A stretch of DNA of 52,297 bases from NCBI GenBank assembly GCA_964649185.1, contig CAZYOO010000004.1, forward strand, positions 1 to 52,297, read 5' to 3'. This DNA comes from an uncultured Dehalococcoidales bacterium. Its GTDB lineage: Bacteria; Chloroflexota; Dehalococcoidia; E44-bin15. Under the pieces are notes generated by a model. It saw nothing but the letters and a program-made list of their open reading frames with translations. It was not told where the DNA came from and did not search any database. This document shows positions 3,612 to 20,676 of the stretch, in pieces. Every line of letters begins with the position of its first letter. Position 1 is the first letter of the stretch. The position numbers and the translations under genes are program-made.

Positions 3612-4016
3612 TCAAGCCCTGGGTCCCATCGATACCGTGGCCCCGCTTGCGCGGGCGATCACCTTGCCTTCGGAATCGCTGACCGTCATCTCGGATGCTC
3701 CCACCCGCTTGCCGGCGCGGATGATCCTGGACTCCGCGTAGATGGTCTCACCTACCGGCGCCGCTGACAGGAAATGGATGTTCATCTGTATCGCAACATG
3801 GATGTTGTCCATCGTGTTGCAGGCACAGCCGAAGGCCTGATCCAGCAACGTTGCTATGATGCCCCCATGTATCATGTTATCCCAGTTCAGGAACTCCTCC
3901 CTCAATTCGAGCTTCACCTTGGCGTAGCCCTCAGACAGTTCCTCAAGCTTCATGCCCAGGAACATGGCGCACGGTGACTCATCGAATTTCCTGCGCAACT
4001 GCTCGATATCTGCCAT
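3612..4016 (-). CDS. PaaI-family hotdog-fold thioesterase
   Basis: 'NMIHGGIIATLLDQAFGCA' is the PaaI/4HBT signature. I placed the start at ATG 4016 (MADIEQ...), preceded by AGGAGA; the longer ORF to 4109 has no SD. Confidence 0.8.
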   Translation of the reverse strand: MADIEQLRRKFDESPCAMFLGMKLEELSEGYAKVKLELREEFLNWDNMIHGGIIATLLDQAFGCACNTMDNIHVAIQMNIHFLSAAPVGETIYAESRIIRAGKRVGASEMTVSDSEGKVIARASGATVSMGPRA

Positions 4017-4062
4017 CCGTTGTTCTCCTGATTCAAAACGTTTGTATTCCCCACATAGCAAG

Positions 4063-4091
4063 ATTGTAGCAACAAAGGGACACCACCGCAA
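4063..4091 (-). promoter_or_regulatory. candidate sigma-70 promoter for the thioesterase gene
   Basis: On the minus strand: TTGCGG (4086-4091), 17-nt spacer, TACAAT (4063-4068). Confidence 0.35.
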
Positions 4092-4174
4092 CTGTGTTGA
4101 TCCCGTCACCCGAAAATACCGCCCTCACCCATGTTTGTCGACACGATCGACCAGACTATTATCAGACGCCTCCC

Positions 4175-4206
4175 GAAAAGAAAAGCGGGGAGGCAAACCT
4201 CCCCGC
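4175..4206 (-). terminator. intrinsic terminator after the thiolase gene
   Basis: The minus strand reads GCGGGGAGG-TTTG-CCTCCCCGC followed by TTTTCTTTTC. It lies 49 nt downstream of the thiolase stop. Confidence 0.55.
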
Positions 4207-4254
4207 CATCTGTCACGGTCGCCTATTGCCGACGGTGAGCGCAGCAGGCAGCCT

Positions 4255-5424
4255 CTACAAACCAACCAGGCAGACGCTGACCACCGGCGCGTACGGCTCG
4301 TTCCCCATGTTGTGGGCCAGGCCCAGCTTGGGGTCTTTGATCTGGCGCTTGTCCGCCCTGCCCTGCAGCTGGAGGTACAGCTCGTATATCATCCTGATGC
4401 CGGAGGCGCCGATGGGGTGCCCGAAGCACTTCAGCCCCCCGTCGGGCTGCACCGGCAGCGCGCCGTCGAGCTGGAACGTGCCCGCCTCGATATCCTCCTT
4501 CACCTTCCCCCGTGGGCTGAACTGCATGTCCTCCATAGTAACCGCCTCGGTGATGGAGAAACAATCGTGCACCTCCGCCATGCTCACTTCCTTGCGCGGA
4601 TCCTTCACCCCTGCCTCTTTATAGGCGGCGATGCCGGCGCGGTAAGCCTCCTCCACGTGTGTATAGTCGAAGTCGGATGTCATCCGCCCCGAGGTAGGGC
4701 TGGCGCTAATCTGGAGGGACTTTATATATACCGGGTCGGGGCGGAACTTCTTGGCCATATCGGCGCGGCACAGCACGGCGGCCGAGCCACCGTCGGACAC
4801 GCCGCAGCAGTCGAACAGCCCCAGCGGCCAGGCGATGAGAGGCGCGTTCAACACCTGCTCGATGGTCAGCTCCCGCCGCAGGTGCGCCTTGGGGTTGAGC
4901 ATCCCGTTCTTGTGGCTCTTGACCGATATCTTGGCCAGCATGGTCTTGCCCTCCTCGGGGCTCAGCCCGTAGCGGTCGAAGTACCTGGTGGCCATGATGG
5001 CGAACACCCCGGGCATGCTCGACTGGTAATGCGTGTTGGTGCGGTTCTCCATGCCCGGCAGACCGCTCATGCCCTCATCCTTCAGCTTCTCGAAGCCCAC
5101 CGCCAGACATACATCGTAGATGCCGGCGGCGATGGCATAGGCCGCACCCCTGATGGCCTCATGCCCCGAGCCGCAGGCGTTCTCCACCCGGGTAACCGGG
5201 ATATACTGCAGCTTCAGCGGCTCGCTCAGTGCCCGGCCGCCGTTGCCGCTGAACAGGGTACCGACCCACGCCGCCTCGATGTCCTTGGACTCGACACCGG
5301 CGTCCTGGTATGCCTCGCTGACCGCATCGATGATCAGGTCGCTGGGGCCCCTGCCCCACAGCTCACCGAACTTGGTGCAGCCCATACCTACTATTGCAAC
5401 TCTATCTTTAATACTTCCTGACAT
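4255..5424 (-). CDS. thiolase (SCP-x / archaeal-type acetyl-CoA C-acetyltransferase family), catalytic residues present
   Basis: 'RVAIVGMGCTKFG' N-terminus, 'VENACGSGHEAI' (nucleophilic Cys) and 'CFGHPIGASGIRM' (His). AGGAGG SD is present. It starts 12 nt after the stop of the upstream HMGCS-like gene. Confidence 0.9.
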   Translation of the reverse strand: MSGSIKDRVAIVGMGCTKFGELWGRGPSDLIIDAVSEAYQDAGVESKDIEAAWVGTLFSGNGGRALSEPLKLQYIPVTRVENACGSGHEAIRGAAYAIAAGIYDVCLAVGFEKLKDEGMSGLPGMENRTNTHYQSSMPGVFAIMATRYFDRYGLSPEEGKTMLAKISVKSHKNGMLNPKAHLRRELTIEQVLNAPLIAWPLGLFDCCGVSDGGSAAVLCRADMAKKFRPDPVYIKSLQISASPTSGRMTSDFDYTHVEEAYRAGIAAYKEAGVKDPRKEVSMAEVHDCFSITEAVTMEDMQFSPRGKVKEDIEAGTFQLDGALPVQPDGGLKCFGHPIGASGIRMIYELYLQLQGRADKRQIKDPKLGLAHNMGNEPYAPVVSVCLVGL

Positions 5425-5436
5425 CTTTTGCCTCCT

Positions 5437-6885
5437 TTAAAACCTCACCGGCCGGACTTTCCAGAAGTAGTTGGTGAGCCCCCGGTCGGACTGCAGCTTC
5501 CTGAAGGTCAACTCGACCTTCGTTCCCACCTTGATCTCATCGGGATCACGATCGGTGAGGTCGAAGAATGCCCTGCCGCCGCCCTCGAACTCTACCAGCA
5601 CCACGGATGCCGGCGGGTCCACCACCGGAGCCAATTGGTCGTGGGTATAGCTGAAGACCGTGGCCGTCTTCCCCACAAAGCAGTAGTCATCGAAATCATC
5701 CTGCGATTGACACTTGGCGCAGACCCTGATGGGCGGGGTGCTCATCGCGCCGTTGTCGTATTGCGGCGTGCCGCACTTCCGGCACTTCACGCCCCACAGA
5801 CCGAGCAATACCTTTCTGTCGCGCCAGTTGGCGGACAGGCGAATATGCTGTTTCTCAGGGCGCCTGGCGGCCTCGATGGGTATGGCATCGCGCCATTTGA
5901 GCAGGCTTGCATAGTTGCTGAATGATTTCTTGACCAGCATGTGCTGGGTTACGCCGCGCCGTTCGGGGAGCTTCTTTATCGCGTCGGTCACCTGGAACAC
6001 GAAGGCATCAGCACCGTTAGCACAGCCCACGAAGAGGATCTTGTCCCCGGGCTTGGCTGTCTCCAGTGCGGCCGCCAGCATCATCGGCGCCATCGCGCTG
6101 CCGGTCATCCCCACATTCAGGAAGAAGCCGAACGGGTCCTGCACCTGCTCCGCAGTAAATCCCATCTGCGCCACCACTTTCCCGTGCCTGCGGGCGTCCC
6201 CCGGGGGATCGAACACCACCTTGGCCAGGTCGCCCGCCTTGAGGCCGCATTTATCCAGAATCTTAGTGATGATCTGCGGGACTATCTTGGAGTAGCCCTC
6301 GTCCATCGTCATGCGGTCTTCCCACGAGCGCACGAAGCTATCGCTCTCGGACCTCCACGTGGCGGCCAGGTCATCGGACAGGGAGCAGTACTCCACGACC
6401 TCTGCTATGACTTTATCCTTGCCTATCAGGAATGCAGCCGCGCCGTCGCCCAGCGATTGCTCAGCCATGCCGGCAGGTGCCCCCACGCGGCAATCGGATA
6501 CCGCCACCAGAACGCTGCCGGCCGCGCCGGCCTTGACCGCATCCAGCGCCATCGCCATCGCCGTCGTGCCGCAGCGCAACGTCGCACCGACATCGGCGGT
6601 ACGGATGTCATCGCGCATGTTGAGCGCCAGGCCCATCGTGGTAGCGCTCGATTTCTCCTTATAGGGCGCCGTGGTGGTGGCGAAGTACAGGCCGTCTACT
6701 TTCTGCGGATCGAAGTCCTTGAGGCAGTTCATCGAGGCCTCCACGGCCATGGTAACGCTGTCCTCATCGAAGTACGCTACCGACCTCTCCCCGGGGATGG
6801 CGAAAAACTCCCAGGCTTTCAGGAACTGCTGCCGGTCTAACCGGTGCCACGGGATGTAGGCGCCATACGATGTTATTCCTATCAT
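5437..6885 (-). CDS. HMG-CoA synthase-fold condensing enzyme fused to a C-terminal DUF35 (Zn-ribbon + OB-fold) domain
   Basis: The N-terminal body has 'IGITSYGAYIP', 'FDEDSVTMA' and 'ATLRCGTTAMAMA'. The C-terminal ~135 aa have 'CRKCGTPQ...VCAKC' plus an OB-like segment. ATG 6885 has AGGAG at a 6-nt spacing; the alternative ATG 6891 abuts the SD. Confidence 0.85.
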   Translation of the reverse strand: MIGITSYGAYIPWHRLDRQQFLKAWEFFAIPGERSVAYFDEDSVTMAVEASMNCLKDFDPQKVDGLYFATTTAPYKEKSSATTMGLALNMRDDIRTADVGATLRCGTTAMAMALDAVKAGAAGSVLVAVSDCRVGAPAGMAEQSLGDGAAAFLIGKDKVIAEVVEYCSLSDDLAATWRSESDSFVRSWEDRMTMDEGYSKIVPQIITKILDKCGLKAGDLAKVVFDPPGDARRHGKVVAQMGFTAEQVQDPFGFFLNVGMTGSAMAPMMLAAALETAKPGDKILFVGCANGADAFVFQVTDAIKKLPERRGVTQHMLVKKSFSNYASLLKWRDAIPIEAARRPEKQHIRLSANWRDRKVLLGLWGVKCRKCGTPQYDNGAMSTPPIRVCAKCQSQDDFDDYCFVGKTATVFSYTHDQLAPVVDPPASVVLVEFEGGGRAFFDLTDRDPDEIKVGTKVELTFRKLQSDRGLTNYFWKVRPVRF

Positions 6886-6926
6886 TCGCATCTCCTGTTT
6901 ATTTTCGGGCTTAGCCCCAAGCGGTT

Positions 6927-7074: not shown

Positions 7075-7103
7075 CTTGACAGCCGGCTTGCGGTTGGGAT
7101 AAC
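7075..7103 (+). promoter_or_regulatory. candidate promoter of the thiolase-fold/DUF35 operon
   Basis: TTGACA (7075-7080), 17-nt spacer, ATAACA (7098-7103). This would give a leader of roughly 135 nt before ATG 7244. Confidence 0.4.
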
Positions 7104-7243
7104 ATAGCTGTAGTGTCTAGCGGGACAATACCAATCAGGTGAACGGAATACAACGGGCTGGCGTTTCTGTTGAGGCGTGAGCCCGCTCTTTGTGCATAAG
7201 ACGCTTGAAATATAGATGGCAACGCCTGAGGAAGGAGACACAT

Positions 7244-8389
7244 ATGGCAGAAAGAGTGGCAATTGTGGCCGTGGCCCAGACGAAGTACGCCGCCTGCAGG
7301 GCCGACGTCAACGAGGAGGAGTTGGCCTACGAGGCCATAAAGCAGGTGCTGGATGAGACCGGCGTCACCCTGTCCGAGATCGGGTCTGCCGTCACCTGCT
7401 CGCAGGACTTCTGGGACGGCAGGACCATATCCAGCATGAACATTCAGCACGTTGTGGGAGCGCATTTAAGCCATGAGGACAATATCTCCGAGGACGGGCT
7501 GAACGCCGTCTATGCCGCCATGGCTCAGATCCTCTCCGGACATCACGACCTTATCCTGCTCGAAGCCCACACCAAGGAATCCCAGGCCGACAAGAGCCTG
7601 ATCGAGAACGCCGCCCTGGACCCCATCTTCATGCGGCAGCTGGGGCTGGATTTCACATCGGCAGCGGCGATGCAGGCTAAGAGATACATGTACAAATACG
7701 GTATAACGCCGGAGCAATGTGCCAAAGTCGTAGTTCGCAACCGCGCCAATGCAAGGAACAACCCGCTGGCTCAGGAGCCGCTGGACCTCACCGTGGACGA
7801 TGTCCTCGGCTCCAGGATGGTCATCTCCCCTATCAGGCTGCTTGATATGAAGCCCATATCGGACGGCGCCTGCGCCATGATAATGGCATCCGAGTCCAGG
7901 GCTAAGAAACTGACCAAGAAGCCGGTATGGATACTGGGCGCTTCCAACAGCTACGAGGCGCATTACCTCGGAGACCGCGACCTGGCCGATTGCGATGCCC
8001 TGACGCAGGCCGCGAAGAAGGCCTACAGCATGGCCGGCATCGGCAATCCGGTTAAAGAGCTTGACGTCGCTGAGATTTCAACCGAGTACTCCTACCAGGA
8101 GCCGCTGTGGCTGGAGGGGCTCGGTTTCTGCGACCGTGGTCAGGGCGGGAAGCTGGTGGAATCCGGCACCGTTAAGATGGGAGGCAGGCTCCCGCTCAAC
8201 CCGTCGGGCGGGGTGCTGGCGGGCAACCCCAACGGTGTGGCCGGGATGGCGCGCGTCATCGAGGCGACGCTGCAGTTACGCGGCGAGGCGGGTGACCGGC
8301 AGGTGAAGAGAGCCAAGACGGCGCTGGCCCACGGATACACCGGGATGTGCGGGCAGCATCAGGCGGTTATGATACTGGGCAACATGTAG
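7244..8389 (+). CDS. thiolase-fold protein lacking canonical Cys/His (paralogue A)
   Basis: The overall SCP-x thiolase pattern is present ('RVAIVAVAQTKY', 'LNPSGGVLAG', 'LQLRGEAGDRQV'). However, 'NISEDG' replaces 'NACGSG' and 'GNPNGVAG' replaces 'GHPIGASG'. ATG 7244 follows GGAAGGAG. Confidence 0.85.
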   Translation: MAERVAIVAVAQTKYAACRADVNEEELAYEAIKQVLDETGVTLSEIGSAVTCSQDFWDGRTISSMNIQHVVGAHLSHEDNISEDGLNAVYAAMAQILSGHHDLILLEAHTKESQADKSLIENAALDPIFMRQLGLDFTSAAAMQAKRYMYKYGITPEQCAKVVVRNRANARNNPLAQEPLDLTVDDVLGSRMVISPIRLLDMKPISDGACAMIMASESRAKKLTKKPVWILGASNSYEAHYLGDRDLADCDALTQAAKKAYSMAGIGNPVKELDVAEISTEYSYQEPLWLEGLGFCDRGQGGKLVESGTVKMGGRLPLNPSGGVLAGNPNGVAGMARVIEATLQLRGEAGDRQVKRAKTALAHGYTGMCGQHQAVMILGNM

Positions 8390-8401
8390 TCGGAGGAAGA
8401 T

Positions 8402-9571
8402 ATGGCGAACAGAGTAGCTATAGTAGGCATAGGACAGACGCATCACACCAGCCAAAGGAACGACGTAAACCAGCCGGAGATGGTGGGCGAGGCGGTCAGG
8501 GCAGCACTGGCCGACGCCAACCTGAGCATCAAGGACATCGAGTCCATGTTCTTCGGCAATATGGAGACCTTCGAGGGCATATTCCTGCCCGACCACGGGA
8601 TGGCTGCCGAGGTCGGGGCCATCGGAAAGCCGGGGTTCAAGGTCAACACCGGCGGCACCACCGGCGGCTCGGTGGTCGTCGAAGCCTTCAGCATGGTGGC
8701 CTCCGGCCTCTTCGATGTGGCCATGGCCATCGGTTTCGAGAAGCAGGACTGTGGCGACACTACCGCAGCCATAACCGCAGCCGCCGTGCCGAACTGGGCC
8801 AAGGGGGCCGCCACCGGCGCCATCGGCGAGTTCGCCAAGCAGGCGCTGGCCTATATGAAGACCTCCGGGGCCAAGGAGGAGCACGCCGCTATGGTGCGGC
8901 TCAAGGCCGACAAGGGCGCCTGCCGCAACGAAAATGCCCACCTGCGTTTGGGGCTGAAGAGCATCGACGAGGTGATGCAGTCGCCCTATCTGGTATGGCC
9001 GCTGAGGCTGATGGACTTCTGTCCCCAGTCCTGCGGCGCCTGCGTGCTGATACTGGCCTCGGAGAAGAAGGCCAGGAAGATCCACAAGAAGCCGGTCTGG
9101 CTGGTTGATTACGAGGTGGTGCACCAGGAGCCGTTCCGCGCCGGAGTGTTCGGCGACCCCACCGGTGAGGAGACCTACACCCAGCACGTGGCCTGCGAGA
9201 AGATATACAAGCGTAACAATATAACCGATGTGAGGAAGCAGGTAGACCTGGCGGAGATCTACGAGCCTTCCAACTGGGAGGAGATGAACCTCTATGAGCA
9301 CCTCCACTTCTGCGGCGATGGTGAAGGGTGGAAGCTCATCGAGAAGGGGATAACCGAGATAGAGGGCGAGTTCCCGGTGAACTGCTCCGGCGGCGTGATA
9401 GCCACCAACCCCATCGGCGCCACCCCCGTCATCCGCGTCGCTGAAGCCGCGCTCCAGGTCCGGGGCGATGCCGGCGAGCATCAGGCCACGCGGGACGTCA
9501 AGACGGCCATCGCCACCGCCCTCGGTGGCCCCAACTGGACGGCGATGTTCCTGCTCAAGAGGTCGGTATAG
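8402..9571 (+). CDS. thiolase-fold protein lacking canonical Cys/His (paralogue B)
   Basis: Carries 'RVAIVGIGQTHH', 'AMAIGFEKQ' and 'VNCSGGVIAT'. 'NTGGTTGG' replaces 'NACGSG' and 'TNPIGATP' replaces 'GHPIGASG'. A GGAGGAAG SD is present. Confidence 0.85.
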   Translation: MANRVAIVGIGQTHHTSQRNDVNQPEMVGEAVRAALADANLSIKDIESMFFGNMETFEGIFLPDHGMAAEVGAIGKPGFKVNTGGTTGGSVVVEAFSMVASGLFDVAMAIGFEKQDCGDTTAAITAAAVPNWAKGAATGAIGEFAKQALAYMKTSGAKEEHAAMVRLKADKGACRNENAHLRLGLKSIDEVMQSPYLVWPLRLMDFCPQSCGACVLILASEKKARKIHKKPVWLVDYEVVHQEPFRAGVFGDPTGEETYTQHVACEKIYKRNNITDVRKQVDLAEIYEPSNWEEMNLYEHLHFCGDGEGWKLIEKGITEIEGEFPVNCSGGVIATNPIGATPVIRVAEAALQVRGDAGEHQATRDVKTAIATALGGPNWTAMFLLKRSV

Positions 9572-9582
9572 GAGGCAATGAT

Positions 9583-10059
9583 ATGGCGAAAGAACCGGAA
9601 TATATCCGCATAGCGTACAAAGCGCCACGGCCATACGACTGGTCAACGGGCAAGTACCTGGGCAAGGTCTATGCCGAGGCCAAGGAGAACAAGAAGCTGG
9701 TGGGGAACCGATGCCCCAAATGCCAGTACATCTGGCTGCCGCCGACGCCGGTCTGCCCCAAGTGCAAGGTGGACATGGGTTGGGACTGGGCCGAGCTGCC
9801 CCAGACGGGCACCGTTTACCAGTACACCTACCTTGTCTACCCGCTGTGGGACCCGCACTACGGGGAGAAGTGGGCCAACCCCTACCCTTCGGCCACCATC
9901 CTGCTGGACAACGGCACCTTCTACCGCCATTTCCTGGAAGAGAAGGACCGGGAGAAGCTGAAGGAGGGGATGCGGGTGCAGGCAGTGTGGAAAGAGGACT
10001 ACAACGAGCGCGGACAGGGCGTGCAGGACATACTTTACTTCAGGACTATCGAGGAGTAG
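9583..10059 (+). CDS. DUF35 family Zn-ribbon/OB-fold protein (paralogue A)
   Basis: 'CPKCQYIWLPPTPVCPKC' four-Cys ribbon followed by an OB-like 'GTVYQYTYL...MRVQAVW' segment. Confidence 0.85.
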   Translation: MAKEPEYIRIAYKAPRPYDWSTGKYLGKVYAEAKENKKLVGNRCPKCQYIWLPPTPVCPKCKVDMGWDWAELPQTGTVYQYTYLVYPLWDPHYGEKWANPYPSATILLDNGTFYRHFLEEKDREKLKEGMRVQAVWKEDYNERGQGVQDILYFRTIEE

Positions 10060-10071
10060 GAGGGCAAAGAG

Positions 10072-10551
10072 ATGCAGATGGTAACCGAGAAACTGGAAGG
10101 CATGGACGTCTGGCTGTACCACGGCCAGATATATATACCGAACACGTATTCCGCCGGCGCGGTGGGAAGCAGGTTCCTGACGACATTGAGGGACAAAGGG
10201 ATGATCCTTGGCATGCGTTGTTCCAAATGCAACCGCGTCTATGTCCCCGCCAGGTCGGTCTGTACGGAATGCTTCGCCCAGATCGATGAATGGGTGGAGG
10301 TCGGCGACAAGGGCACCGTGCTGACATATTCCATCGACTACGAGACCAAGCCTGTAATGCAGCCGGTGGAACCCCCGGTCGTGTACGCGGTAATACAACT
10401 GGACGGCGCCGACAGCGGGTTCGCGCACATGCTGGGCGAGGTCGAACCGGAGAAGCTTTCGATCGGCATGAGGGTTCAGGCGGTCTTCAAGCCCAAGAGA
10501 GAGCGTGTAGCCAGCATCCTGGACATCAGGTACTTCAAACCTATATCCTAG
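10072..10551 (+). CDS. DUF35 family Zn-ribbon/OB-fold protein (paralogue B)
   Basis: 'CSKCNRVYVPARSVCTEC' ribbon followed by 'GTVLTYSI...MRVQAVFKP'. Confidence 0.85.
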   Translation: MQMVTEKLEGMDVWLYHGQIYIPNTYSAGAVGSRFLTTLRDKGMILGMRCSKCNRVYVPARSVCTECFAQIDEWVEVGDKGTVLTYSIDYETKPVMQPVEPPVVYAVIQLDGADSGFAHMLGEVEPEKLSIGMRVQAVFKPKRERVASILDIRYFKPIS

Positions 10552-10802: not shown

Positions 10803-10870
10803 ATGCTATGATGATACTGTTCACCGTCCGCATCTAAGCCCCCGGACAGTATCACCAGGAGGGTGTGGAG

Positions 10871-13800
10871 ATGAGCACAATAAAGGGCAACCAGAAACGT
10901 CGCCGTTCCAGCAGCAAGGCTCAAGACAGTGTAGCTGCTACAACAGGGGAATATAAGGACCCCGGCCAGGCCCTGCTGCAAGCTATCGAGCCGCTGCGCC
11001 CCCTGCTAAACATGATCAAGGATGCTATTGTCATCTCCGACATGCAGGGCACCATAATGGAAGTAAACGATAAGGCGCTGCAGATCAGTAAGTGCAGCAG
11101 AAAGGATTTCATCGGGCGAAATGCTATCGAAATCATCGCCGATAAAGACCGTCAGGCCGCAATAGACAGCCTGATGAAACAGATGGAAGGCGGCACTCCG
11201 GAGATGACGGAATGCACCTTTGTCGCAACGGACGGCTCCGAGATAGAGGTGGACTTCAGCTCTTCCTTCATCAACGACAGCTCTGGTAAACCCGTGGGTA
11301 CCATCACCATCTGCAGGGATATCACCCAGCGCAAACGGATGGAGGCGGACCTGGAGAAAGCGGCGGAGAAGCTGCAGATCATCATTGAGTCCATCGGGGA
11401 CATGCTCTTCATCACCGATCTCGATCTCAACATCGTCAATGTGAATGAGGCCGCCCTTCGTGCGCTGGGCTACGGCAGTGAGGACGAGCTGGTCGGCAAG
11501 AGCGCCACAGCCCCAATCGCGGAAAAGGACCGCGCCCGGATCACAGTTTACATGGGCAAGGCCCTAGCGGGGAAGGAGAGTGGCCACACCACGGAATACA
11601 CCCTGGTATCCTCCGACGGTAAGGAGTTCGATGTGGAGGCCAACACCGAGATATTGCACGACTGCACCGGCATGACGGTGGGCCTGATCATCACCGCACG
11701 CGATATAAGTGAGCGCAAACGCATGCAGGAAGAGATTAAAAAATCCGCAGAGAAACTCAACTCCGTACTAGAGTCTATGAGTGATGGCGTCATTGTCCTC
11801 GATATATTCGGCAATATCACCGATGCGAATGATACCGCGGTCCACATGTTCGAGTACAGCAGTAAGCAAGAACTCATCGGTAAAAACGCCATGGACACCA
11901 TCACCGAGCGAGACCGCCAGAAGTGCGCCGACGCCATATCACAATCGTTGGAGACGGGGAAGACCCCCGGCGTATTGGAATTCGCGATGGCAACCTCGAC
12001 CGGGAGGGAGTTCGATGCTGAACTGGCAACCTCTATTCTGCATGATAGTCAAGGCAACCTCACCGGCTTTGTCGGCGTTATCAGAAACATAACCGAGCGC
12101 AAGCGCATGCAGGCTGAGCTGGAGAAATCGGCGGAGAAGCTGCGCACCGTTATCGAGTCCATCGGTGATATGCTTTTCATCACCGATATGGACCTTAAGT
12201 TGACCAATGTAAACGATGCCGCCGCCCGCCTGCTGGGTTATGCCGACAGGGAGGAGATGATAGGTAAAAATGCCCTGGACCCAGTGGTTGCAAAGGACCG
12301 CGCCAGGGTCGCCGTCGATATGGCCAAGGCGCTCAGCGGCCAGGACGGCTCCGAGATAATGGAGTACACCATGCTCTCCGCAGGCGGCACGGAGCTGGAA
12401 GTGGAGTCGAATACCGAGATACTGAGAGACTGCTCAGGGCAGACCGTCGGCCTCATCATCACCACCCGTGACGTCACCGAGCGCAGGCGCATGCAGGAGG
12501 CGGTGAGGGCATCGGAGGAGAAGCTACGCACCATGTTCAACTCCATAAAAGACGGCATCGTCGTTACCGACACGATGGGCAGTATCATAGAAGGCAATGA
12601 CGCGGCATTCCACATGGCCGGATATGACAGCCTGGAAGAGATCAGCGGCAAGAATCCGGTTGAATTTATATCAGAGAGGGACCGCCCCAGTCTGGTGGAA
12701 GAGCTGACCAAGTTCCTGGAGACAGGACAGGCTGCCGAGCACCTGGAGTACACCATGATTAAAAAGGACGGGGCTGAGTTCGATATAGAACTGAATATCT
12801 CCGCCCTGCATGATGCCGGTGGCAACATAACCGGTTTCATCGCGGTGGAGCGCGATATCACCGAGCGCAAGCGCATGCAGGAGGAGCTGCGAAAGACCGC
12901 GGAGAAGATGCGCATCATGTTTGATTCCATCAAGGATGCGGTCATCGTCTCTGACATGAGCGGGGCAATCCTGGAAGTGAACGATGCGGCGCTCCAGATA
13001 AGCGGCTGGACCAGGGAGGAATTCGCCGGCAAGAATGCGGTAGAGGTTTTGGCAGAGAAGGACCGCGCCGCTGCCGTAGAGAGCATCATGAAGCAGGCTG
13101 AAGGCGAACTGGCCATGGAGTCGGCGGAGTGCACTTTCATTCTGAGTGAAGGCAAGGAGCTTGAAGTGGACTTCACTGCTGCCCTGATGAGGGATGCAGA
13201 AGGTAATCCAATAGGGACGGTGACCGTAGCCAGGGACATCACCGAGCGTAAACGCATGCAGGAGGAGCTGCTCAAGACCGCGGAGAAGCTGCGCATCATG
13301 TTCGAGACCATAGGTGATATGTTCATCCTTACCGATATGGAACTGAACATCGTGAACGTTAACGAGGCAGCGGCCCGCCTGCTGGGCTACAAGCACGAGG
13401 AGGAACTGGCCGGCAAGGCCGTCGCCGATTTCATACTTGAAAAGACCCGTGACACTGCAGTGAAAACCATGAAAAAGACCCTCAAGACCAAAGAGGGCAG
13501 CGGCACGTCGACAGTGGAGTTCAAGTTCGTCTCCGCAGAGGGAAATGAATTCGACGTCGAGGCCACCACCGACCTGCTCCGCGACTGCTCCGGCAAGCCA
13601 TCAGGCCTCATCGTAACCGCCCGCGACGTAACCGAGCGTAAACAGATGCAGGAGGAACTGCGCAAGACGGTAGATAAGCTTAATATCCTGTTCGAGTCGA
13701 TAGCTGATGGTATTGTCGTCGCCGATATGAGCGGGACCATTATCGAGACCAACGAGGCCGCTGTCCGCATAGCTGGTTTCGGCAGCAAAGATGAGGTCCT

Positions 13801-16696
13801 CGGCAGGAATGGCCTCGATTTCATCGCTGAAGAGGACCGGGAGCGGGTGGCTAACGACCTAGCCAAGGCGCTGTTCGAAGGCTCGCCCGTCAGCATATCG
13901 CAGTATTCGATCAATTCAGCCGACGGCCGCAAGATAGACCTGGAAGTTCATACCTCCATGATGCGCGATGGCGAGAACAACCCGGTGGGCTTCATAGTGG
14001 TGGAACGGGACATCACCGAGCGCAAGCAGATGCAGGAGGAGATCCGCAACACCGCAGAGAAGCTGCGGGTGATTTTCGAGGCTATCAAAGACGGCGTCAT
14101 CCTCATCGATACCGAGGGCAAGGTCGTTGACGTTAACCCGGGTGTCCTCCGTCTGGCGGGGTTCGACAGCAAGGATGAGCTCATCGGCATTGACGCCATG
14201 CAGTTCATCCCTGAAGCAGAGCGTGAGCAAGTGATAAACGAGATGATGAAATCGCTGGCGGAAGGCACCGCTATTGAAAACGTCGAGTACAAGCTTTTGC
14301 GCAAGGACGGCAGCACCTTCGACTGCGAGATGAGCACCGCCATGTTGAAGGATGCCGACGGGAACCCCACAGGGTTCGTGGCCGTGGAACGGGACGTCAC
14401 CGAGCGCAAGCGCATGCAGGAAGAACTGCGCAAGACGGCGGAGAAGCTGCGCATTATGTTCGAGACCATCGGTGACATGTTCGTCCTCACCGACATGGAG
14501 CTGAACATCATCAACGCCAACGAGGCTGCCGCCCGGCTGCTGGGCTACAGCAGCAACGTGGAACTCGCCGGCAAAAGCGTCACCGAGCTCATCGCGGGCA
14601 AGGACCGTGCTGCGGCCACCAAAGCCATGAAAAAGACCCTTGCCACAAAGACCGGGAGCGGGACATCTAACCTAGAGTGTACACTCATAACTACCTCAGG
14701 GAAAGAGTTCTATGTAGAGGCCACCACCGACCTCCTCCGCGACTGCTCCGGCATGCCGTCCGGGCTCATCATCACCGCCCGCGACGTTACTGAGGGCAAG
14801 CGCATGATTCAAGCGTTACGCGACTCCGAAGAGAAGAAGCGCCTCATATTCGAGGCGCTCAGGGACGGGATCATGGTCGTCGACCTGCAGGGCGTTGTAA
14901 TAGAGACGAATCCAATAGCGGCCAGCATGCTTGGATATACAAAGGGTGAGCTCATAGGCAAGAGCACCCTCGATTTCGTTGCCAAAGAGGATCAGGAGAA
15001 AGCCATCGAGAATGCTATCAAGCTGGTTAGCGTCGGCGTGGCCGATGACTACATCGACTACTCCACGCTGAAGCTGGTGAAAAAGGACGGCGGCCTGACT
15101 GAAGTCGAACACAGCACCGGCCTGATGCGTGACAGCAGCGGCAAACCGGTCGCCGTCATCGGCATATCACACGATATCACCGAACGCAGGCGCATGGAGA
15201 AGGAGTTGATAGAATCCGCGGAGAAGCTTAAGAGCATATTCGCGTCGATCAAGGACCCGGTCATCATCTCCGATATGTCGGGAACTATACTGGACGTCAA
15301 CGATGCGGCGCTCCGCGTCAGCGGCTGGCCCAGGGAGAAGTGGGTCGGCACCAATGCACTGGAGGTCGTCCACGAGAAAGACCGCCAGGCGGTAGTGGAG
15401 AGCCTGATGAAACAGATGGAGGAGGGGCCCAGCGACGATCTGACGGAGTGCACCTTCGTCGTCGGCGATGGCCGAGAGCTGGAGGTAGACTTCAGCTCCT
15501 CTTTGATACACGATAGCTCCGGCCAGCCCATCGGCACCGTCACCGTGGCGCGGGACATCACCGAGCGCAAGCGTGCTGAGAGAGCGATACGGGAGTCCGA
15601 GGAGAAGCTGCGCGCCATGTTTGACTCCGTAAGGGACGGCATACTGGTCATCGACCTCGAGGGCAATTTCAGGGAATTCAACGAAGCGACGATGAACATG
15701 ACCGGATACAGCAGGGAGGAACTGGCTGGCAAGAGCGCTTTAGATTTCATCGTGGAGGAAGACCGCGAGAAGGTCGTGGCCGACCTGAGCCAGACCCTGA
15801 CCGACAAGCATACCCAGACGCTGACATCATATCGGCTGCTGGCCAAGGGAAACCGGGGCTTCGACGCCGAACTCAGCAGCGGCATGATGCTCGACAGCGA
15901 GGGCAATCCCACCGCCCTCATCGGGATCATGAGAGATGTAACCGAGCGCAAACGGATGGAGGAGAAACTGGTCAAGATCAAGGAGGATCTGGAGCGCTCC
16001 AACCGGGAGCTGGAGCAGTTCGCCTACGTGGCATCGCATGACCTGCAGGAGCCGCTGCGCATGGTATCCAGCTACCTGAAGCTGCTGGAGCGGCGCTCAA
16101 AGGACAAGCTCGACTCCGAGGCGCAGGAATTCATCGACTTCGCCGTGGACGGGTCAACCCGCATGGCGGCCATGATCCAGGCACTGCTGACATATTCGCG
16201 AGTCGGTACGCGCGGGAAACCCTTCGAACCCACCGAATCTGAGGATATCCTCCGCAAAGCGCTATCGAACCTGCAGATAGCCATCGAGGAGAAGGGCGCG
16301 GTGGTGACCCATGACCCGCTGCCTACCATCGTTGCCGACAGCACCCAGATGCTCCAACTGTTCCAGAACCTGATCGGCAACGGCCTCAAGTTCCAGGACA
16401 ACAAGCGGCCGGAGGTCCACGTCTCGGTGGAAGACCGGGGCGAGGACTGGGTCTTCTCCTTCCGCGATAACGGGATCGGGATCGATCCTAAATACAAGGA
16501 GCGCATATTCGTCATCTTCGAGCGGCTGCACGGCAAGGGCGAGTACAAGGGCACCGGCATCGGGCTTGCGGTGTGCAAGAAGATAGTGGAACGCCACGGT
16601 GGGCGGATATGGGTGGATTCAACGCCAGGCAACGGCGCAACGTTCTATTTCACAATGCCCAAGGAGAGAAAGGAGTCCGACGATGCAGGGAAATGA
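10871..16696 (+). CDS. soluble sensor histidine kinase with 13 tandem PAS domains, HisKA and HATPase_c
   Basis: Thirteen ~125-130-aa PAS units are each closed by an 'RD(I/V)[15 protein letters not shown]' linker. These are followed by '[18 protein letters not shown]' (H-box) and by N/G boxes ('NLIGNGLKF', 'DNGIGI', 'GTGIGLA'). I see no hydrophobic TM segment. ATG 10871 lies 7 nt after AGGAGGG; the ORF opens at GTG 10865. Confidence 0.9.
10985..15965 (+). repeat. in-frame tandem array of 13 PAS-coding modules (period 372-390 nt)
   Basis: The linker motif recurs near 11326, 11698, 12083, 12467, 12851, 13232, 13621, 14007, 14390, 14779, 15170, 15551 and 15932. Confidence 0.85.
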
Positions 16697-19260: not shown

Positions 19261-20676
19261 ATGACGTCACTCGAGTATATATTCCACCCCCGCTCCATAG
19301 CGCTGGTCGGTGCGAGCGATAACGCCTTCAACCCGGCCACCATCATGTTCCTGGAGCCGCTGAAGAAGTTCGGGTATACGGGCGATATATTCCCGGTCAA
19401 CCCCAACGCCTCCACGGTGTCCGGCCTGACCGCCTACCCCACGGTCAGGGACATCCCCGGGCCGGTGGACCACGTCATCTGCGCCATTCCTGCATCTTCG
19501 ACACGCCAGCTGCTGGAGGACTGCATCGCCAAGGGGGTGAAGGTATTCCACATGTATACCTCCGGCTTTTCCGAGATCGGCGTCCACGACATGGGCAGGC
19601 TGCAGGACGAGCTGGTCCAGATCGCCCGAAAGGGCGGCATCCGCATCATCGGCCCCAACTGCATGGGCCTCTACTACCCCAAGCTGGGCATCTCCTTCTG
19701 CCCCACCTTCCCCGAGGAGTCGGGTTCGGTGGGCCTCATCGCCCAGAGCGGGAGCTACTCCCTGCTGGTCACCATCGGCGCGGCCAGCCGGGGGGTGCGC
19801 TTCAGCAAGGTGGTAAGCTACGGTAACGCCAGCGACATCAATGAATGCGATCTGCTGGAGTATCTGGCCGATGACCCGGAGACCGACATCATCGCCGGTT
19901 ATATCGAGGGGACCAGCGACGGTCACCGCCTGAAAAAGGTGCTGGCCGAAGCAGCGGGGAAGAAACCGGTGATCCTGGTCAAGAAGGGGGGCACCGCTGC
20001 CGGCACCCGCGGCGCCAGCTCCCACACCGGGGCGCTGGCCGGCGACGACAAGGTGTGGGACGCACTGATACGGCAATCCGGCGCGATCCGCGTCCCCGAC
20101 CTGGAGCAGATGATCGACCTGCTGGTGACCTTCCAGTTCATGCCGCTGCCCCAAGGTAAGGACGCCGTGGTTATCGGCATCGGCGGCGGCCCCAGCGTGC
20201 GTGCCGCCGATGACTGCGAGCGAGGCGGGCTAAAGCTCCCGCCGATCCCCGAAGATATGGTAGCCGAGCTCAGGCGCTATGCGCCCACCGCCGGCAGCAT
20301 GCTGCGTAATCCGGTGGACGTGGGCAAGATGCATATAGACTGGGATCCCGTCATCAAAACCTTCACCGACTGGGGCCAGACCGATATGTTCATCTGGCAG
20401 ATCGCCCCCGACATCGAGCCGTTCGAAGAAAACAGCTTCATAAGGCAGTTCTGCATCGACCAGCGAGCCCGCTTCCTGCAGGAGTTCATCAAGTCGGGCA
20501 AACCCCTCGCCGTGGCGGTTCACACGGCGGAGAGCCGCTTCGCCCTCAGCATCCTGGACATCACCCGCAATGAATGCGTGAAGCATAAGGTGCCTTTCTA
20601 CACCTCCGTTTACAGCGCGGCGCGGGCCATCAGCCAGTTCATAGACTGGAACCGGCGCCACAGCGGGCTGCCGTAG
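19261..20676 (+). CDS. NDP-forming acyl-CoA synthetase, alpha-type subunit (CoA-binding + ligase-CoA domains)
   Basis: 'PRSIALVGASDN' CoA-binding start, 'IIGPNCMG' and an 'ASSHTGALAG' phosphohistidine loop. Start is at ATG 19261; the ORF opens earlier inside the preceding gene. Confidence 0.8.
   Translation: MTSLEYIFHPRSIALVGASDNAFNPATIMFLEPLKKFGYTGDIFPVNPNASTVSGLTAYPTVRDIPGPVDHVICAIPASSTRQLLEDCIAKGVKVFHMYTSGFSEIGVHDMGRLQDELVQIARKGGIRIIGPNCMGLYYPKLGISFCPTFPEESGSVGLIAQSGSYSLLVTIGAASRGVRFSKVVSYGNASDINECDLLEYLADDPETDIIAGYIEGTSDGHRLKKVLAEAAGKKPVILVKKGGTAAGTRGASSHTGALAGDDKVWDALIRQSGAIRVPDLEQMIDLLVTFQFMPLPQGKDAVVIGIGGGPSVRAADDCERGGLKLPPIPEDMVAELRRYAPTAGSMLRNPVDVGKMHIDWDPVIKTFTDWGQTDMFIWQIAPDIEPFEENSFIRQFCIDQRARFLQEFIKSGKPLAVAVHTAESRFALSILDITRNECVKHKVPFYTSVYSAARAISQFIDWNRRHSGLP

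What the first reader, a model, noticed from the sequence alone, without database searches (positions are those of the whole stretch)
7244..10551. Two thiolase-fold paralogues lacking the catalytic Cys and His, plus two DUF35 paralogues: a possible four-subunit non-thiolase complex
Seen by aligning the three thiolase-fold proteins in this window by eye. The canonical enzyme has 'VENACGSGHEAIRGAAYAIAAG'. Paralogue B has 'VNTGGTTGGSVVVEAFSMVASG' (Cys replaced by Gly/Thr). Paralogue A has 'EDNISEDGLNAVYAAMAQILSG' (Cys replaced by Ser). At the His motif, 'CFGHPIGASG' becomes 'LAGNPNGVAG' in A and 'IATNPIGATP' in B (His replaced by Asn). Both are followed by two distinct DUF35 genes with intact four-Cys ribbons. 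All four genes are separated by only 11-12 nt, which suggests a single operon. This operon is divergent from the HMGCS-DUF35/thiolase operon, so three thiolase folds, three DUF35 modules and one HMGCS fold sit within 6.3 kb. Established knowledge: Ltp2-type steroid side-chain retro-aldolases are thiolase-fold proteins without the catalytic cysteines and require a DUF35 partner. Inference: this could be a heteromeric (A/B plus two DUF35) aldolase-like or scaffolding complex acting on an acyl-CoA. I do not know of a characterised system with a double pair like this.
Basis: partly seen in the sequence, partly recalled or inferred. Interest (0 to 1): 0.8.

Follow-up and report, generated by a model that had tools for sequence, protein, structure and literature searches.

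The report
Four-gene cysteine-less thiolase-fold/DUF35 aldolase-like operon
Four tightly packed genes encode two thiolase-like proteins that have lost the thiolase catalytic residues plus two small DUF35 partner proteins; this is a widespread but uncharacterised relative, in anaerobes, of the actinobacterial Ltp3-Ltp4 "aldol-lyase" pair, and it most likely cuts C-C bonds by a retro-aldol reaction rather than by thiolysis.

Summary
Genes A (7244-8389), B (8402-9571), D1 (9583-10059) and D2 (10072-10551) form one operon with 11-12 nt gaps. HMMER and MAFFT alignments put Ser82/Gly85 at the nucleophilic Cys, STEY/YEPS at the HDCF motif, and Asn328/Asn336 at the GHP His. Neither protein can be a thiolase.

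The A-B-DUF35 order recurs in 62 of 72 related genome loci, with both DUF35 genes called in 49. Most are Dehalococcoidia; a few are Bathyarchaeia, Actinomycetota and Desulfobacterota.

The double pair does have a known relative. B falls with actinobacterial Ltp3-like proteins (97% bootstrap) and A with Ltp4-like proteins (99%). In Actinobacteria these sit beside an "OB-fold" protein, the Rv3521 type, which is two fused DUF35 modules. Ltp3-Ltp4 is a genetically defined, proposed heteromeric aldol-lyase.

B keeps an invariant Tyr at the position of the catalytic base of the Ltp2 and Sal aldolases, plus an invariant Asn. The corresponding positions in A vary between orthologues.

My best reading is a D1·A·B·D2 retro-aldolase acting on a 3-hydroxyacyl-CoA, with B catalytic and A a partner. 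The activity and the substrate are inferred, not shown. It is a new variant of a known kind, of moderate interest.

The parts
7076..7105 (+). Sigma-70-like promoter match (TTGACA, 18 nt spacer, TAACAT) in the 352-bp divergent intergenic region upstream of gene A
   Evidence: Consensus scan only, 10 of 12 positions matched. This is not evidence of function.
7244..8389 (+). Gene A. A 381-aa thiolase-fold protein in the Ltp4-like clade and the probable non-catalytic partner subunit. It has Ser82 at the Cys-nucleophile column in a loop 3 residues shorter, S279-T-E281-Y282 at HDCF, and Asn328 at the GHP His.
   Evidence: Pfam Thiolase_N + Thiolase_C_1. HMMER alignment to 6hsj and 4yzo. Motif columns. 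Clade with Ltp4-like proteins at 99/100 bootstrap. All three catalytic positions vary among orthologues. RBS GGAAGGAGA lies 5 nt upstream of the ATG.
8402..9571 (+). Gene B. A 389-aa thiolase-fold protein in the Ltp3-like clade and the probable catalytic (retro-aldolase) subunit. It has Gly85 at the nucleophile column, Tyr287-Glu-Pro289-Ser at HDCF, and Asn336 at the GHP His.
   Evidence: Pfam. HMMER alignment to 7yvy and 6hsj. Y287, P289 and N336 are conserved at 95% or more in 21 non-redundant family members, including the Ltp3-like proteins. Clade with Ltp3-like proteins at 97/100 bootstrap. Best NCBIfam match is PRK08313 at 343 bits, below the cut-off of 514.
9583..10059 (+). Gene D1. A 158-aa DUF35 protein with a zinc ribbon (CPKC-x10-CPKC) and an OB fold.
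   Evidence: Pfam zf-ChsH2 + OB_ChsH2_C. Best PDB match is ChsH2(DUF35) of the Ltp2 aldolase complex, 6ok1_B, E 2.3e-9. The ribbon is intact in 54 of 62 orthologues.
10072..10551 (+). Gene D2. A 159-aa DUF35 protein with a zinc ribbon (CSKC-x10-CTEC) and an OB fold. It is 33% identical to D1.
   Evidence: Pfam. Best PDB matches are SSO2064 (3irb, E 3.7e-14) and the DUF35 of the archaeal thiolase/HMGCS complex (6esq_E, E 3.2e-12). The ribbon is intact in 49 of 49 orthologues.

Best explanation
The four genes encode one heteromeric enzyme of the thiolase-fold/DUF35 aldolase kind. It is a distant, split-gene relative of the actinobacterial Rv3521 (tandem DUF35)-Ltp4-Ltp3 set.

**Proposed assembly (inferred).** A and B form the obligate thiolase-type dimer as a pseudo-symmetric heterodimer. 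Each subunit is capped by its own DUF35 protein, giving D1·A·B·D2. This copies the DUF35-Sal-Sal-DUF35 (alpha-beta-beta-alpha) arrangement solved for Sal.

**Proposed chemistry (inferred).** Retro-aldol cleavage of a 3-hydroxyacyl-CoA into a ketone or aldehyde plus acetyl- or propionyl-CoA, with no covalent acyl-enzyme intermediate.
- In B, Tyr287 removes the proton from the 3-hydroxyl. It aligns with Ltp2 Tyr294 and Sal Tyr302.
- Gly85 replaces the nucleophilic Cys, as in Sal.
- Asn336, at the position of the thiolase His, helps stabilise the thioester enolate.
- The proton donor to the enolate is not identified.
- A has variable residues at all three former catalytic positions and a shortened nucleophile loop. 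It is most likely a catalytically inert partner that completes the dimer and shapes a larger substrate cleft.

**Substrate.** Unknown. In relatives, the gene context points to a CoA-activated, probably branched or bulky, carboxylic acid that is processed by acyl-CoA dehydrogenase, then MaoC hydratase, then this enzyme.

**Shown here.** Loss of the catalytic residues, operon conservation, clade membership, residue conservation and gene context.

**Inferred.** Complex formation, stoichiometry, aldolase activity and the roles of individual residues.
For: 1. **Not a thiolase.** The nucleophilic Cys, the HDCF Cys and the GHP His are all absent from both proteins.
2. **One functional unit.**
   - The A-B-DUF35 order and orientation are kept in 62 loci, and both DUF35 genes are called in 49. 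Median gaps are 11-12.5 nt, across Dehalococcoidia, Bathyarchaeia, Actinomycetota and Desulfobacterota.
   - In Actinobacteria the two DUF35 modules are fused into one protein encoded next to the thiolase-fold pair.
3. **Homology to Ltp3 and Ltp4.**
   - The closest annotated relatives of B, at 37-39% identity, are the second thiolase-fold gene of an OB-fold/PRK07937/PRK08313 triplet.
   - In Tsukamurella this triplet is syntenic with M. tuberculosis Rv3520c-Rv3523.
   - NJ bootstrap support is 99 for A + Ltp4-like, 97 for B + Ltp3-like, and 84 for both together.
   - Ltp3-Ltp4 is described as a heteromeric aldol-lyase for C24-branched sterol side chains (PMC6678751).
4. **Aldolase-type residues in B.**
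   - Tyr287 lies in the column of Ltp2 Tyr294 and Sal Tyr302, and Gly85 in the column of the Sal Gly.
   - Tyr, Pro and Asn are at least 95% conserved in the family.
   - The signature recurs in 31 of the 107 full-length 50%-identity representatives that I examined.
5. **A's corresponding positions vary** between orthologues.
6. **Gene context in 55 loci.**
   - CoA-transferases are present in 33, acyl-CoA dehydrogenases in 24 and MaoC-type hydratase pairs in 22.
   - An SDR-type dehydrogenase cluster was seen in only 2 loci.
   - True Ltp2 orthologues are adjacent in 7 loci.
7. **DUF35 partners.**
   - D1's best solved relative is the DUF35 domain of the Ltp2 aldolase complex.
   - In Sal, the DUF35 zinc finger shapes the substrate cleft (PMC12329534 abstract).
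Against: - No member of the A, B, Ltp3 or Ltp4 clades has a published enzyme assay or structure in the literature I could search. The aldol-lyase role of Ltp3-Ltp4 rests on genetics and pathway logic.
- B lacks the second catalytic residue of both characterised aldolases. It has Pro289 where Sal has the essential Cys304, and Pro337 where Ltp2 has Tyr344.
- A and B lie outside the Ltp2/Sal clade, which has 100% bootstrap support. They score below the NCBIfam cut-offs of PRK08313 and PRK07937.
- Overall, A is as conserved as B. Within Dehalococcoidia it keeps invariant Glu281 and Tyr282, so it may not be inert.
- In this window there is no acyl-CoA dehydrogenase or hydratase next to the operon.
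- The AlphaFold2 models were poor, with pLDDT 67.8 and 57.1. The fold search did not discriminate aldolases from thiolases.
- The heteromeric assembly could not be modelled with the tools available.
Confidence: 0.6

Rival explanations
1. The same complex works in the biosynthetic direction. It would catalyse an aldol-type addition of an acyl-CoA enolate to a ketone or aldehyde, cooperating with the neighbouring thiolase and HMGCS-like::DUF35 operon to build a branched hydroxyacyl-CoA.
For: - Aldol reactions are reversible.
- In this window the operon is divergent from a thiolase/HMGCS-like operon and has no catabolic neighbours.
- The HMGCS-like and thiolase genes recur upstream in 5 loci.
Against: - The association with HMGCS holds in only 5 of 55 loci.
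- The dominant neighbours elsewhere are catabolic: CoA-transferases, acyl-CoA dehydrogenases and hydratases.
- The nearest genetically studied relatives, Ltp3 and Ltp4, are catabolic.
Confidence: 0.12
2. The complex catalyses a different non-thiolytic reaction on an acyl-CoA. Examples are decarboxylation of a malonyl- or 3-carboxyacyl-CoA (as weakly seen for the thiolase-like protein TbSLP), hydrolysis, or isomerisation. The conserved Tyr and Asn would act only as an enolate-stabilising site.
For: - The Tyr/Asn pair could stabilise any thioester enolate.
- B lacks the acid residues of Ltp2 and Sal.
- TbSLP, which has the related YDCF motif, shows slow malonyl-CoA decarboxylation (PMC12329534).
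- No biochemistry exists for this clade.
Against: - The authors of the Sal paper themselves argue that TbSLP is more likely an aldolase.
- The context of dehydrogenase plus hydratase, with SDR-type dehydrogenases rare, fits a 3-hydroxyacyl-CoA substrate.
Confidence: 0.15
3. A, B, D1 and D2 are catalytically dead scaffold or regulatory subunits that organise or regulate the adjacent canonical thiolase and HMGCS-like enzyme.
For: - DUF35 proteins do scaffold thiolase/HMGCS in archaea and a fatty-acid synthase complex in Sulfolobus.
- Both A and B lack the thiolase catalytic residues.
Against: - The block is conserved independently of the HMGCS and thiolase genes. They are adjacent in only 5 of 55 loci.
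- The HMGCS-like protein already carries its own fused DUF35.
- B keeps an invariant set of polar residues at active-site positions across phyla. That is not expected of a pure scaffold.
Confidence: 0.08
4. A or B is still a thiolase or acyltransferase that uses an unconventional nucleophile, such as Ser82 of A.
For: A has Ser at the nucleophile column. So does the solved thiolase-like protein ST0096 (4yzo).
Against: - Ser82 is replaced by Ala, Cys or Thr in close orthologues.
- The His and the acid/base Cys are also missing.
- B has Gly-Gly at that site.
Confidence: 0.03

Closest known systems
Actinobacterial Ltp3-Ltp4 with the adjacent Rv3521-type protein (M. tuberculosis Rv3521-Rv3523; Rhodococcus rhodochrous ltp3/ltp4)
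   Same: - Two adjacent thiolase-fold paralogues without the catalytic Cys, plus two DUF35 modules.
- B groups with Ltp3-like proteins (97% bootstrap) and shares the Gly / Tyr-x-Pro / Asn-Pro signature.
- A groups with Ltp4-like proteins (99% bootstrap) and shares the shortened nucleophile loop.
- Described as a heteromeric aldol-lyase.
   Different: - Only 28-39% identity, and below the NCBIfam cut-offs.
- Here the DUF35 modules are two separate genes downstream, not one fused gene upstream.
- Both zinc ribbons are intact here. The N-terminal module of the fused protein has none.
- The hosts are anaerobic Dehalococcoidia and others, not aerobic sterol degraders.
- There is no sterol-catabolic context in the window.
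Ltp2-ChsH2(DUF35) steroid side-chain aldolase (Thermomonospora curvata, PDB 6OK1)
   Same: - Thiolase fold without catalytic cysteines and dependent on a DUF35 partner.
- B has a Tyr in the column of the catalytic base Tyr294.
- D1's best solved relative is ChsH2(DUF35).
   Different: - Ltp2 is a homodimer.
- Its catalytic acid Tyr344 has no equivalent in A or B.
- A and B lie outside the Ltp2/Sal clade.
- True Ltp2 orthologues exist as separate genes in related loci.
Sal-Shy(DUF35) bile-acid aldolase (Comamonas testosteroni, PDB 9MYR)
   Same: - Gly at the nucleophile column.
- Tyr at the first position of the HDCF-equivalent motif.
- A central dimer flanked by two DUF35 domains.
   Different: - Sal needs Cys304 (motif YDCY), where B has Pro.
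- Sal is a homodimer.
- Its DUF35 is a domain of the hydratase.
[quoted passage not shown]
   Same: SCP2-type thiolase fold combined with a zinc-ribbon/OB DUF35 subunit. They are hit by A, B and D2 in PDB searches.
   Different: - In the sequences inspected here, the canonical thiolases of the window and of related loci and the solved SCP2-type thiolases 6hsj and 7yvy keep the nucleophilic Cys and the GHP His.
- BbsB and the 6ESQ thiolase are characterised as true thiolases (established knowledge; their motifs were not inspected here).
- The window's own copy of this kind is the neighbouring thiolase (4255-5424) with the HMGCS-like::DUF35 fusion (5437-6891).
PhlACB / MucABC multi-component acyltransferases
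   Same: Hetero-oligomers of two different thiolase-superfamily proteins plus a DUF35 (PhlB) subunit.
   Different: - PhlC keeps a catalytic Cys (from my own knowledge of that system).
- PhlA is KAS III-like, not an SCP2-type paralogue.
- There is only one kind of DUF35 subunit.
- The similarity is remote (E 1e-12 to 1e-20).

Membership tests
SCP2-type / archaeal-type thiolase (acetyl-CoA C-acyltransferase) | Nucleophilic Cys in the N-terminal domain (NxC[GS][ST]G loop) | tested here: not met
   A has Ser82, which is not conserved and sits in a loop 3 residues shorter. B has Gly85. The window's canonical thiolase has Cys84.
SCP2-type / archaeal-type thiolase (acetyl-CoA C-acyltransferase) | Catalytic His of the G-H-P motif and acid/base Cys of the H-D-C-F motif | tested here: not met
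   A has GNP and STEY. B has TNP and YEPS.
Ltp2-type steroid aldolase | Catalytic base Tyr294 (YDHF motif) | tested here: inconclusive
   B has Tyr287 in that column and it is invariant in its family. A has Ser279 there.
Ltp2-type steroid aldolase | Catalytic acid Tyr344 (GEAY motif) | tested here: not met
   A and B have Asn-Pro in that stretch. True Ltp2 orthologues in related loci keep GEAY.
Ltp2-type steroid aldolase | Phylogenetic placement within the Ltp2/Sal clade | tested here: not met
   The Ltp2+Sal+4u4e clade has 100/100 bootstrap support and excludes A and B.
Sal-type bile-acid aldolase | Tyr302 and Cys304 catalytic dyad (YDCY), with Gly at the thiolase nucleophile position | tested here: not met
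   B has the Tyr and the Gly, but Pro289 in place of the essential Cys. A has none of the three.
Ltp3/Ltp4 heteromeric pair (with tandem-DUF35 partner) | Two adjacent Cys-less thiolase-fold paralogues encoded with two DUF35 modules | tested here: met
   Window genes A-B-D1-D2. The actinobacterial loci L073 and L074 have an OB-fold protein with two OB_ChsH2_C stretches, followed by PRK07937 and PRK08313 proteins.
Ltp3/Ltp4 heteromeric pair (with tandem-DUF35 partner) | Clade membership and shared signature residues | tested here: met
   A + Ltp4-like 99/100 and B + Ltp3-like 97/100. B and the Ltp3-like proteins share Gly / Tyr-x-Pro / Asn-Pro. The tree is neighbour-joining only.
Ltp3/Ltp4 heteromeric pair (with tandem-DUF35 partner) | Score above the curated NCBIfam cut-offs (PRK08313 for Ltp3-like, PRK07937 for Ltp4-like) | tested here: not met
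   B scores 343 bits against a cut-off of 514. A scores 184 bits on PRK07937 against a cut-off of 419. The actinobacterial proteins score 550-734 bits.
Ltp3/Ltp4 heteromeric pair (with tandem-DUF35 partner) | Role in removing the C24 branch of sterol side chains; aldol-lyase activity | not testable with these tools
   Only genetics and pathway proposals exist for Ltp3/Ltp4. There is no sterol-catabolic gene context in the window.
DUF35 (zf-ChsH2 + OB_ChsH2_C) | N-terminal four-Cys zinc ribbon followed by an OB fold | tested here: met
   Both Pfam domains score above cut-off in D1 and D2. CxxC-x10-CxxC is present in both.

The most novel reading that the evidence does not exclude
The A-B-D1-D2 module is a widespread, oxygen-independent four-subunit retro-aldolase. 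It would let anaerobes (Dehalococcoidia, Bathyarchaeia, Desulfobacterota) get past the beta-oxidation block at tertiary or bulky 3-hydroxyacyl-CoAs from branched, isoprenoid, alicyclic or steroid-like acids.

It would have only one active site per heterodimer, in B, and a degenerate partner, A, that enlarges the cleft. This is the thiolase-fold counterpart of heteromeric steroid hydratases such as ChsH1-ChsH2, which use a catalytically inert partner.

If so, it would also define the unknown biochemistry of Ltp3-Ltp4/Rv3521 in mycobacteria.
Probability: 0.3. Interest if true: 0.7.

Novelty: new variant of a known kind. Interest (0 to 1): 0.55.

Why it matters
- **Annotation.** Homologues of A and B are named 'acetyl-CoA C-acetyltransferase' or 'thiolase family protein' in public resources. 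They lack every thiolase catalytic residue. Metabolic reconstructions of Dehalococcoidia and Bathyarchaeia that count them as beta-oxidation or mevalonate thiolases are therefore probably wrong.
- **Link to mycobacteria.** The comparison ties this module to Ltp3-Ltp4. It also identifies the Rv3521-type 'hypothetical / OB-fold nucleic-acid-binding' protein as a tandem DUF35 and the likely missing partner of Ltp3-Ltp4. That gives a concrete, testable design for reconstituting an enzyme that has only genetic support so far.
- **Carbon cycling.** If the retro-aldol function is confirmed, the module would mark a C-C cleavage step for branched or bulky organic acids in anoxic sediments.

Tried and rejected
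- **AlphaFold2 models.**
  - I modelled A and B from alignments of 47-48 homologues that were all at least 74% identical. The models were mediocre, with pLDDT 67.8 and 57.1.
  - Foldseek on the A model returned all SCP2-type thiolases, aldolases and PhlC at TM about 0.65, with no discrimination. I did not run it on B.
  - No coordinates are returned and no multimer prediction is offered. Active-site geometry and the D1·A·B·D2 assembly therefore could not be tested.
- **DUF35 phylogeny.** It did not resolve which actinobacterial module corresponds to D1 or D2. No grouping recurred in 100 bootstraps.
- **Fusion evidence.** I searched the long representatives for A-B or B-DUF35 fusions. The three long proteins were a probable frameshift, a Lys-rich tail and a canonical thiolase-SCP2 fusion.
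- **First gene-calling attempt.** Choosing the longest ORF picked antisense ORFs in this GC-rich DNA. I replaced it with a codon-usage score.
- **First tree attempt.** The first Biopython tree run timed out.
- **Literature.**
  - Searches for a characterised double pair in anaerobes or Dehalococcoidia found nothing.
  - The archaeal fatty-acid synthase paper describes single ketothiolase/DUF35 pairs only.
  - The original Ltp3/Ltp4 paper (Wilbrink 2012) is not held.
- **Ser82 as a nucleophile.** Considered and rejected, because it is not conserved.
- **HMGCS/thiolase operon as an obligate partner.** Considered and rejected, because it is adjacent in only 5 of 55 loci.

Full report
**1. What is in the sequence**

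The region holds four same-strand ORFs:
- A: 7244-8389, 381 aa.
- B: 8402-9571, 389 aa.
- D1: 9583-10059, 158 aa.
- D2: 10072-10551, 159 aa.

The gaps between them are 12, 11 and 12 nt. The start of A at 7244 is supported by a GGAAGGAGA ribosome-binding site and by the uniform 381-aa length of its homologues.

In Pfam, A and B are Thiolase_N + Thiolase_C_1, and D1 and D2 are zf-ChsH2 + OB_ChsH2_C, which together make up DUF35. A and B are 32% identical, and each is about 28% identical to the window's canonical thiolase. D1 and D2 are 33% identical.

On the opposite strand, across a 352-bp intergenic region, lie three more genes:
- An HMG-CoA-synthase-like protein with a C-terminal DUF35 (5437-6891).
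- A canonical SCP2-type thiolase (4255-5424).
- A 4HBT thioesterase (3612-4109).

**2. Are the catalytic residues really missing?**

Yes.

| Protein | Nucleophile position | HDCF motif | GHP motif |
|---|---|---|---|
| Canonical thiolase | Cys84 | His286-Asp-Cys288-Phe | His336 |
| A | Ser82, in a loop 3 residues shorter | Ser279-Thr-Glu281-Tyr282 | Asn328 |
| B | Gly85 | Tyr287-Glu-Pro289-Ser | Asn336 |

Ser82 of A is not a replacement nucleophile, because even close orthologues have Ala, Cys or Thr there.

**3. Is it a conserved unit?**

A and B each have more than 120 database clusters at 74-98% identity. Where these are named, they come from Dehalococcoidia or Chloroflexota MAGs, and they are annotated as 'acetyl-CoA C-acetyltransferase' or 'thiolase family protein'.

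A scan of one genome per species returned 72 loci. In 62 of them A, B and a DUF35 gene are adjacent in the same order and orientation. Both DUF35 genes are called in 49 loci. Most of the remaining loci are cut by contig ends. Median gaps are 11-12.5 nt.

Most loci are from Dehalococcoidia. The block also occurs in MAGs labelled Bathyarchaeia (L052, L063), Actinomycetota (L064) and Desulfobacterota/Syntrophaceae (L066, L069-L071). Some genomes carry two or three copies.

The zinc ribbon is intact in 54 of 62 D1 orthologues and in 49 of 49 D2 orthologues.

**4. What is it related to?**

*The actinobacterial relatives.*
- A tblastn search of B against annotated plasmids found its best matches, at 37-39% identity, in actinobacterial loci.
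- Each of these loci has a 309-339-aa 'OB-fold nucleic acid binding domain-containing protein' followed by two 'thiolase domain-containing proteins'.
- The OB-fold protein contains two DUF35 OB modules and one zinc ribbon.
- The first thiolase-fold protein passes NCBIfam PRK07937 ('lipid-transfer protein') and matches A best. The second passes PRK08313 and matches B best.
- In Tsukamurella the neighbours are an F420-dependent oxidoreductase, a nitronate monooxygenase, a crotonase, an AMP-binding ligase, a P450 and a steroid thiolase. This reproduces the M. tuberculosis Rv3515c-Rv3523 region, where Rv3521 is followed by ltp4 (Rv3522) and ltp3 (Rv3523).

*Tree.* A neighbour-joining tree with 100 bootstraps gave the following support:

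| Clade | Bootstrap support |
|---|---|
| A + Ltp4-like | 99 |
| B + Ltp3-like | 97 |
| A and B clades together | 84 |
| Ltp2 + Sal + 4u4e (separate clade) | 100 |

*Literature.*
- Ltp3 and Ltp4 are essential for degrading C24-branched sterol side chains in Rhodococcus rhodochrous (Wilbrink 2012, cited).
- A review describes them as a heteromeric aldol-lyase that cleaves the C24-C25 bond (PMC6678751).
- I found no enzyme assay or structure for them.
- Rv3521 is still called a hypothetical protein that 'could bind DNA' (PMC9782250).

The 'double pair' therefore has a known but uncharacterised relative. In that relative the two DUF35 modules are fused.

**5. Which residues matter?**

The Sal paper equates four motifs (PMC12329534):
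- HDCF in SCP2 thiolases.
- YDHF in Ltp2, where Tyr294 is the base and Tyr344 the acid.
- YDCY in Sal, where Tyr302 is the base, Cys304 the acid, and Gly occupies the nucleophile position.
- YDCF in TbSLP.

I verified the Ltp2 positions from an HMMER alignment of 6ok1 with a Dehalococcoidia Ltp2 orthologue.

*B.*
- B and all its relatives, including the Ltp3-like proteins, have Gly at the nucleophile column, Tyr at the first HDCF position, Pro at the third, and Asn at the GHP His.
- Y287, P289 and N336 are at least 95% conserved in 21 non-redundant sequences.
- The same signature is found in 31 of the 107 full-length 50%-identity representatives most similar to B. Canonical Cys/His/His proteins appear only from about rank 47.
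- B therefore keeps the aldolase base Tyr. It has neither Sal's Cys nor Ltp2's second Tyr.

*A.*
- In the A clade all three positions vary between orthologues: S/C/M/Y/H/T, then E/P/R/C/Y/K/H/D, then N/C/T/V/I/H/A.
- Within Dehalococcoidia, however, Glu281 and Tyr282 are invariant.
- Overall, A is as conserved as B.

**6. Gene context**

Among 55 related loci with at least four flanking genes, the neighbours within six genes are as follows:

| Neighbour | Loci (of 55) |
|---|---|
| CoA-transferases | 33 |
| CrtI/amine-oxidase-like FAD oxidoreductases | 28 |
| Acyl-CoA dehydrogenases | 24 |
| MaoC-type hydratase pairs (FAS1_DH_region + MaoC_dehydratas) | 22 |
| Crotonases | 15 |
| Zn-alcohol dehydrogenases | 8 |
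| Nitronate-monooxygenase-family proteins | 8 |
| HMGCS-like::DUF35 | 5 |

An SDR-type dehydrogenase cluster appeared in only 2 loci.

In seven loci the block is followed by a second block: Ltp2-like, DUF35, paralogue, DUF35.
- Its first member is a true Ltp2 orthologue (6ok1_A, E 2.9e-129) that keeps YDAF and GEAY.
- Its second member lacks the catalytic tyrosines, with DDSY and EGH in their place.

The pattern of dehydrogenase, then MaoC hydratase, then a Cys-less thiolase-fold/DUF35 protein copies the logic of the steroid igr operon (ChsE1-E2, ChsH1-H2, Ltp2).

In this window itself those neighbours are absent. The operon lies between the HMGCS/thiolase operon and a 1943-aa PAS-repeat histidine kinase with a response regulator.

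**7. Most likely mechanism**

This section is inference. A and B form a pseudo-symmetric thiolase-type heterodimer. Each subunit binds one DUF35 protein, as in the solved DUF35-Sal-Sal-DUF35 complex, where the zinc finger shapes the substrate cleft.

B is the catalytic subunit for retro-aldol cleavage of a 3-hydroxyacyl-CoA:
- Tyr287 acts as the base on the 3-hydroxyl.
- Asn336, and probably backbone amides around Gly85, stabilise the thioester enolate.
- The proton donor is unknown.

A is probably an inert partner that enlarges or shapes the cleft. This follows the precedent of steroid side-chain hydratases that need a catalytically inert partner domain (title of PMC11321319). I cannot exclude that A is also catalytic in this lineage. 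The substrate is unknown.

**8. Rival explanations**

Four alternatives are scored in their own sections:
- A biosynthetic aldol role together with the HMGCS/thiolase operon.
- A different enolate chemistry, such as decarboxylation or hydrolysis.
- A pure scaffold.
- An unconventional thiolase.

**9. Limits**

- There is no biochemistry for any member of the A/B/Ltp3/Ltp4 clades.
- The tree is neighbour-joining, built on 51 sequences, and the PDB references were transcribed from HMMER output.
- The equation of the plasmid genes with Ltp3 and Ltp4 rests on synteny, NCBIfam families and protein lengths, not on direct comparison with the M. tuberculosis sequences.
- The structure models were poor and no multimer modelling was possible.
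- The taxon labels of the MAGs are those of the depositors.

**10. Verdict**

The aldolase-like heteromer reading is the best supported, but it is not proven. The system is not unprecedented. It is a divergent, split-gene, anaerobe-borne variant of the Ltp3-Ltp4/tandem-DUF35 set. Its biochemistry is unknown and its public annotation as a thiolase is probably wrong.

Noticed in passing
window 3612-6891 (- strand): An operon of a 4HBT thioesterase, a canonical SCP2-type thiolase (Cys84, HDCF, GHP), and an HMG-CoA-synthase-like protein with a C-terminal DUF35 fused to it. The HMGCS-like protein scores 225.5 bits on NCBIfam PRK04262, just under the cut-off of 244. This looks like a bacterial, fused version of the archaeal thiolase/HMGCS/DUF35 channelling complex. 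It lies next to the A-B-D1-D2 block in only 5 of 55 related loci.
   Followed up: partly
L013 15592-18867; also L011, L015, L016, L022, L027, L030: A few kb downstream of the A-B-D1-D2 block in several Dehalococcoidia MAGs lies a second Cys-less pair. The first gene is a true Ltp2 orthologue (6ok1_A, E 2.9e-129, keeping YDAF and GEAY) followed by a DUF35 gene. The second is a paralogue lacking both catalytic tyrosines (DDSY/EGH), followed by another DUF35 gene. This suggests heteromeric Ltp2-type aldolases and steroid-like side-chain catabolism in Dehalococcoidia.
   Followed up: partly
L073 5925-6944; L074 5996-6925 (actinobacterial plasmids): The Rv3521-type 'OB-fold nucleic acid binding domain-containing protein' encoded upstream of the ltp4/ltp3-like genes is a tandem DUF35. 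Pfam finds two OB_ChsH2_C stretches, and only the second module has the zinc ribbon. The literature still treats Rv3521 as a hypothetical protein that might bind DNA.
   Followed up: yes
homologues P0005-P0240 of window 7244-9571: JGI names most homologues of A and B 'acetyl-CoA C-acetyltransferase', and NCBI names them 'thiolase family protein'. The family lacks all thiolase catalytic residues, so these names are probably misleading for metabolic reconstructions.
   Followed up: partly
window 10865-16696 (+) and the following response-regulator gene (called at 19441-19887 of locus L075, which holds the same DNA): A 1943-aa histidine kinase made of many tandem PAS modules, with more than 60 Pfam PAS-type hits on record. 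It is followed by a response regulator and then by a 641-aa Oxidored_FMN + Pyr_redox_2 (old-yellow-enzyme / dienoyl-CoA-reductase-like) protein at 17319-19244.
   Followed up: no
L066 11154-12320; L070 11153-12319; L071 4014-5180: In the Desulfobacterota versions, the B-like subunit has a Cys one residue before the nucleophile column (ETCGSTG), while it keeps Tyr (YNPF) and Asn (TNP). An alignment shift of one position would place a Cys at the nucleophile site, so these may differ functionally from the window's B, which has Gly-Gly there.
   Followed up: no
PDB 4yzo (ST0096, Sulfolobus tokodaii), best PDB sequence match of window 7244-8389: This solved 'thiolase-like protein' also has Ser at the nucleophile column and HDMA instead of HDCF, but it keeps GHP. 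It is another thiolase-fold protein that lacks the thiolase cysteines.
   Followed up: no
window 8276-9646 (- strand): A 456-aa antisense ORF overlaps gene B and is longer than B itself. It is an artefact of the GC-rich coding strand: the codon-usage score favours B, and B has the homologues and the Pfam domains.
   Followed up: yes
L018, L020, L051 (one MAG, CAZWIP01); L070 1287-5286 and 10001-13248: Some genomes carry two or three diverged copies of the whole four-gene block, and in L070 two copies lie 6 kb apart. This suggests several substrate-specific versions per organism.
   Followed up: no
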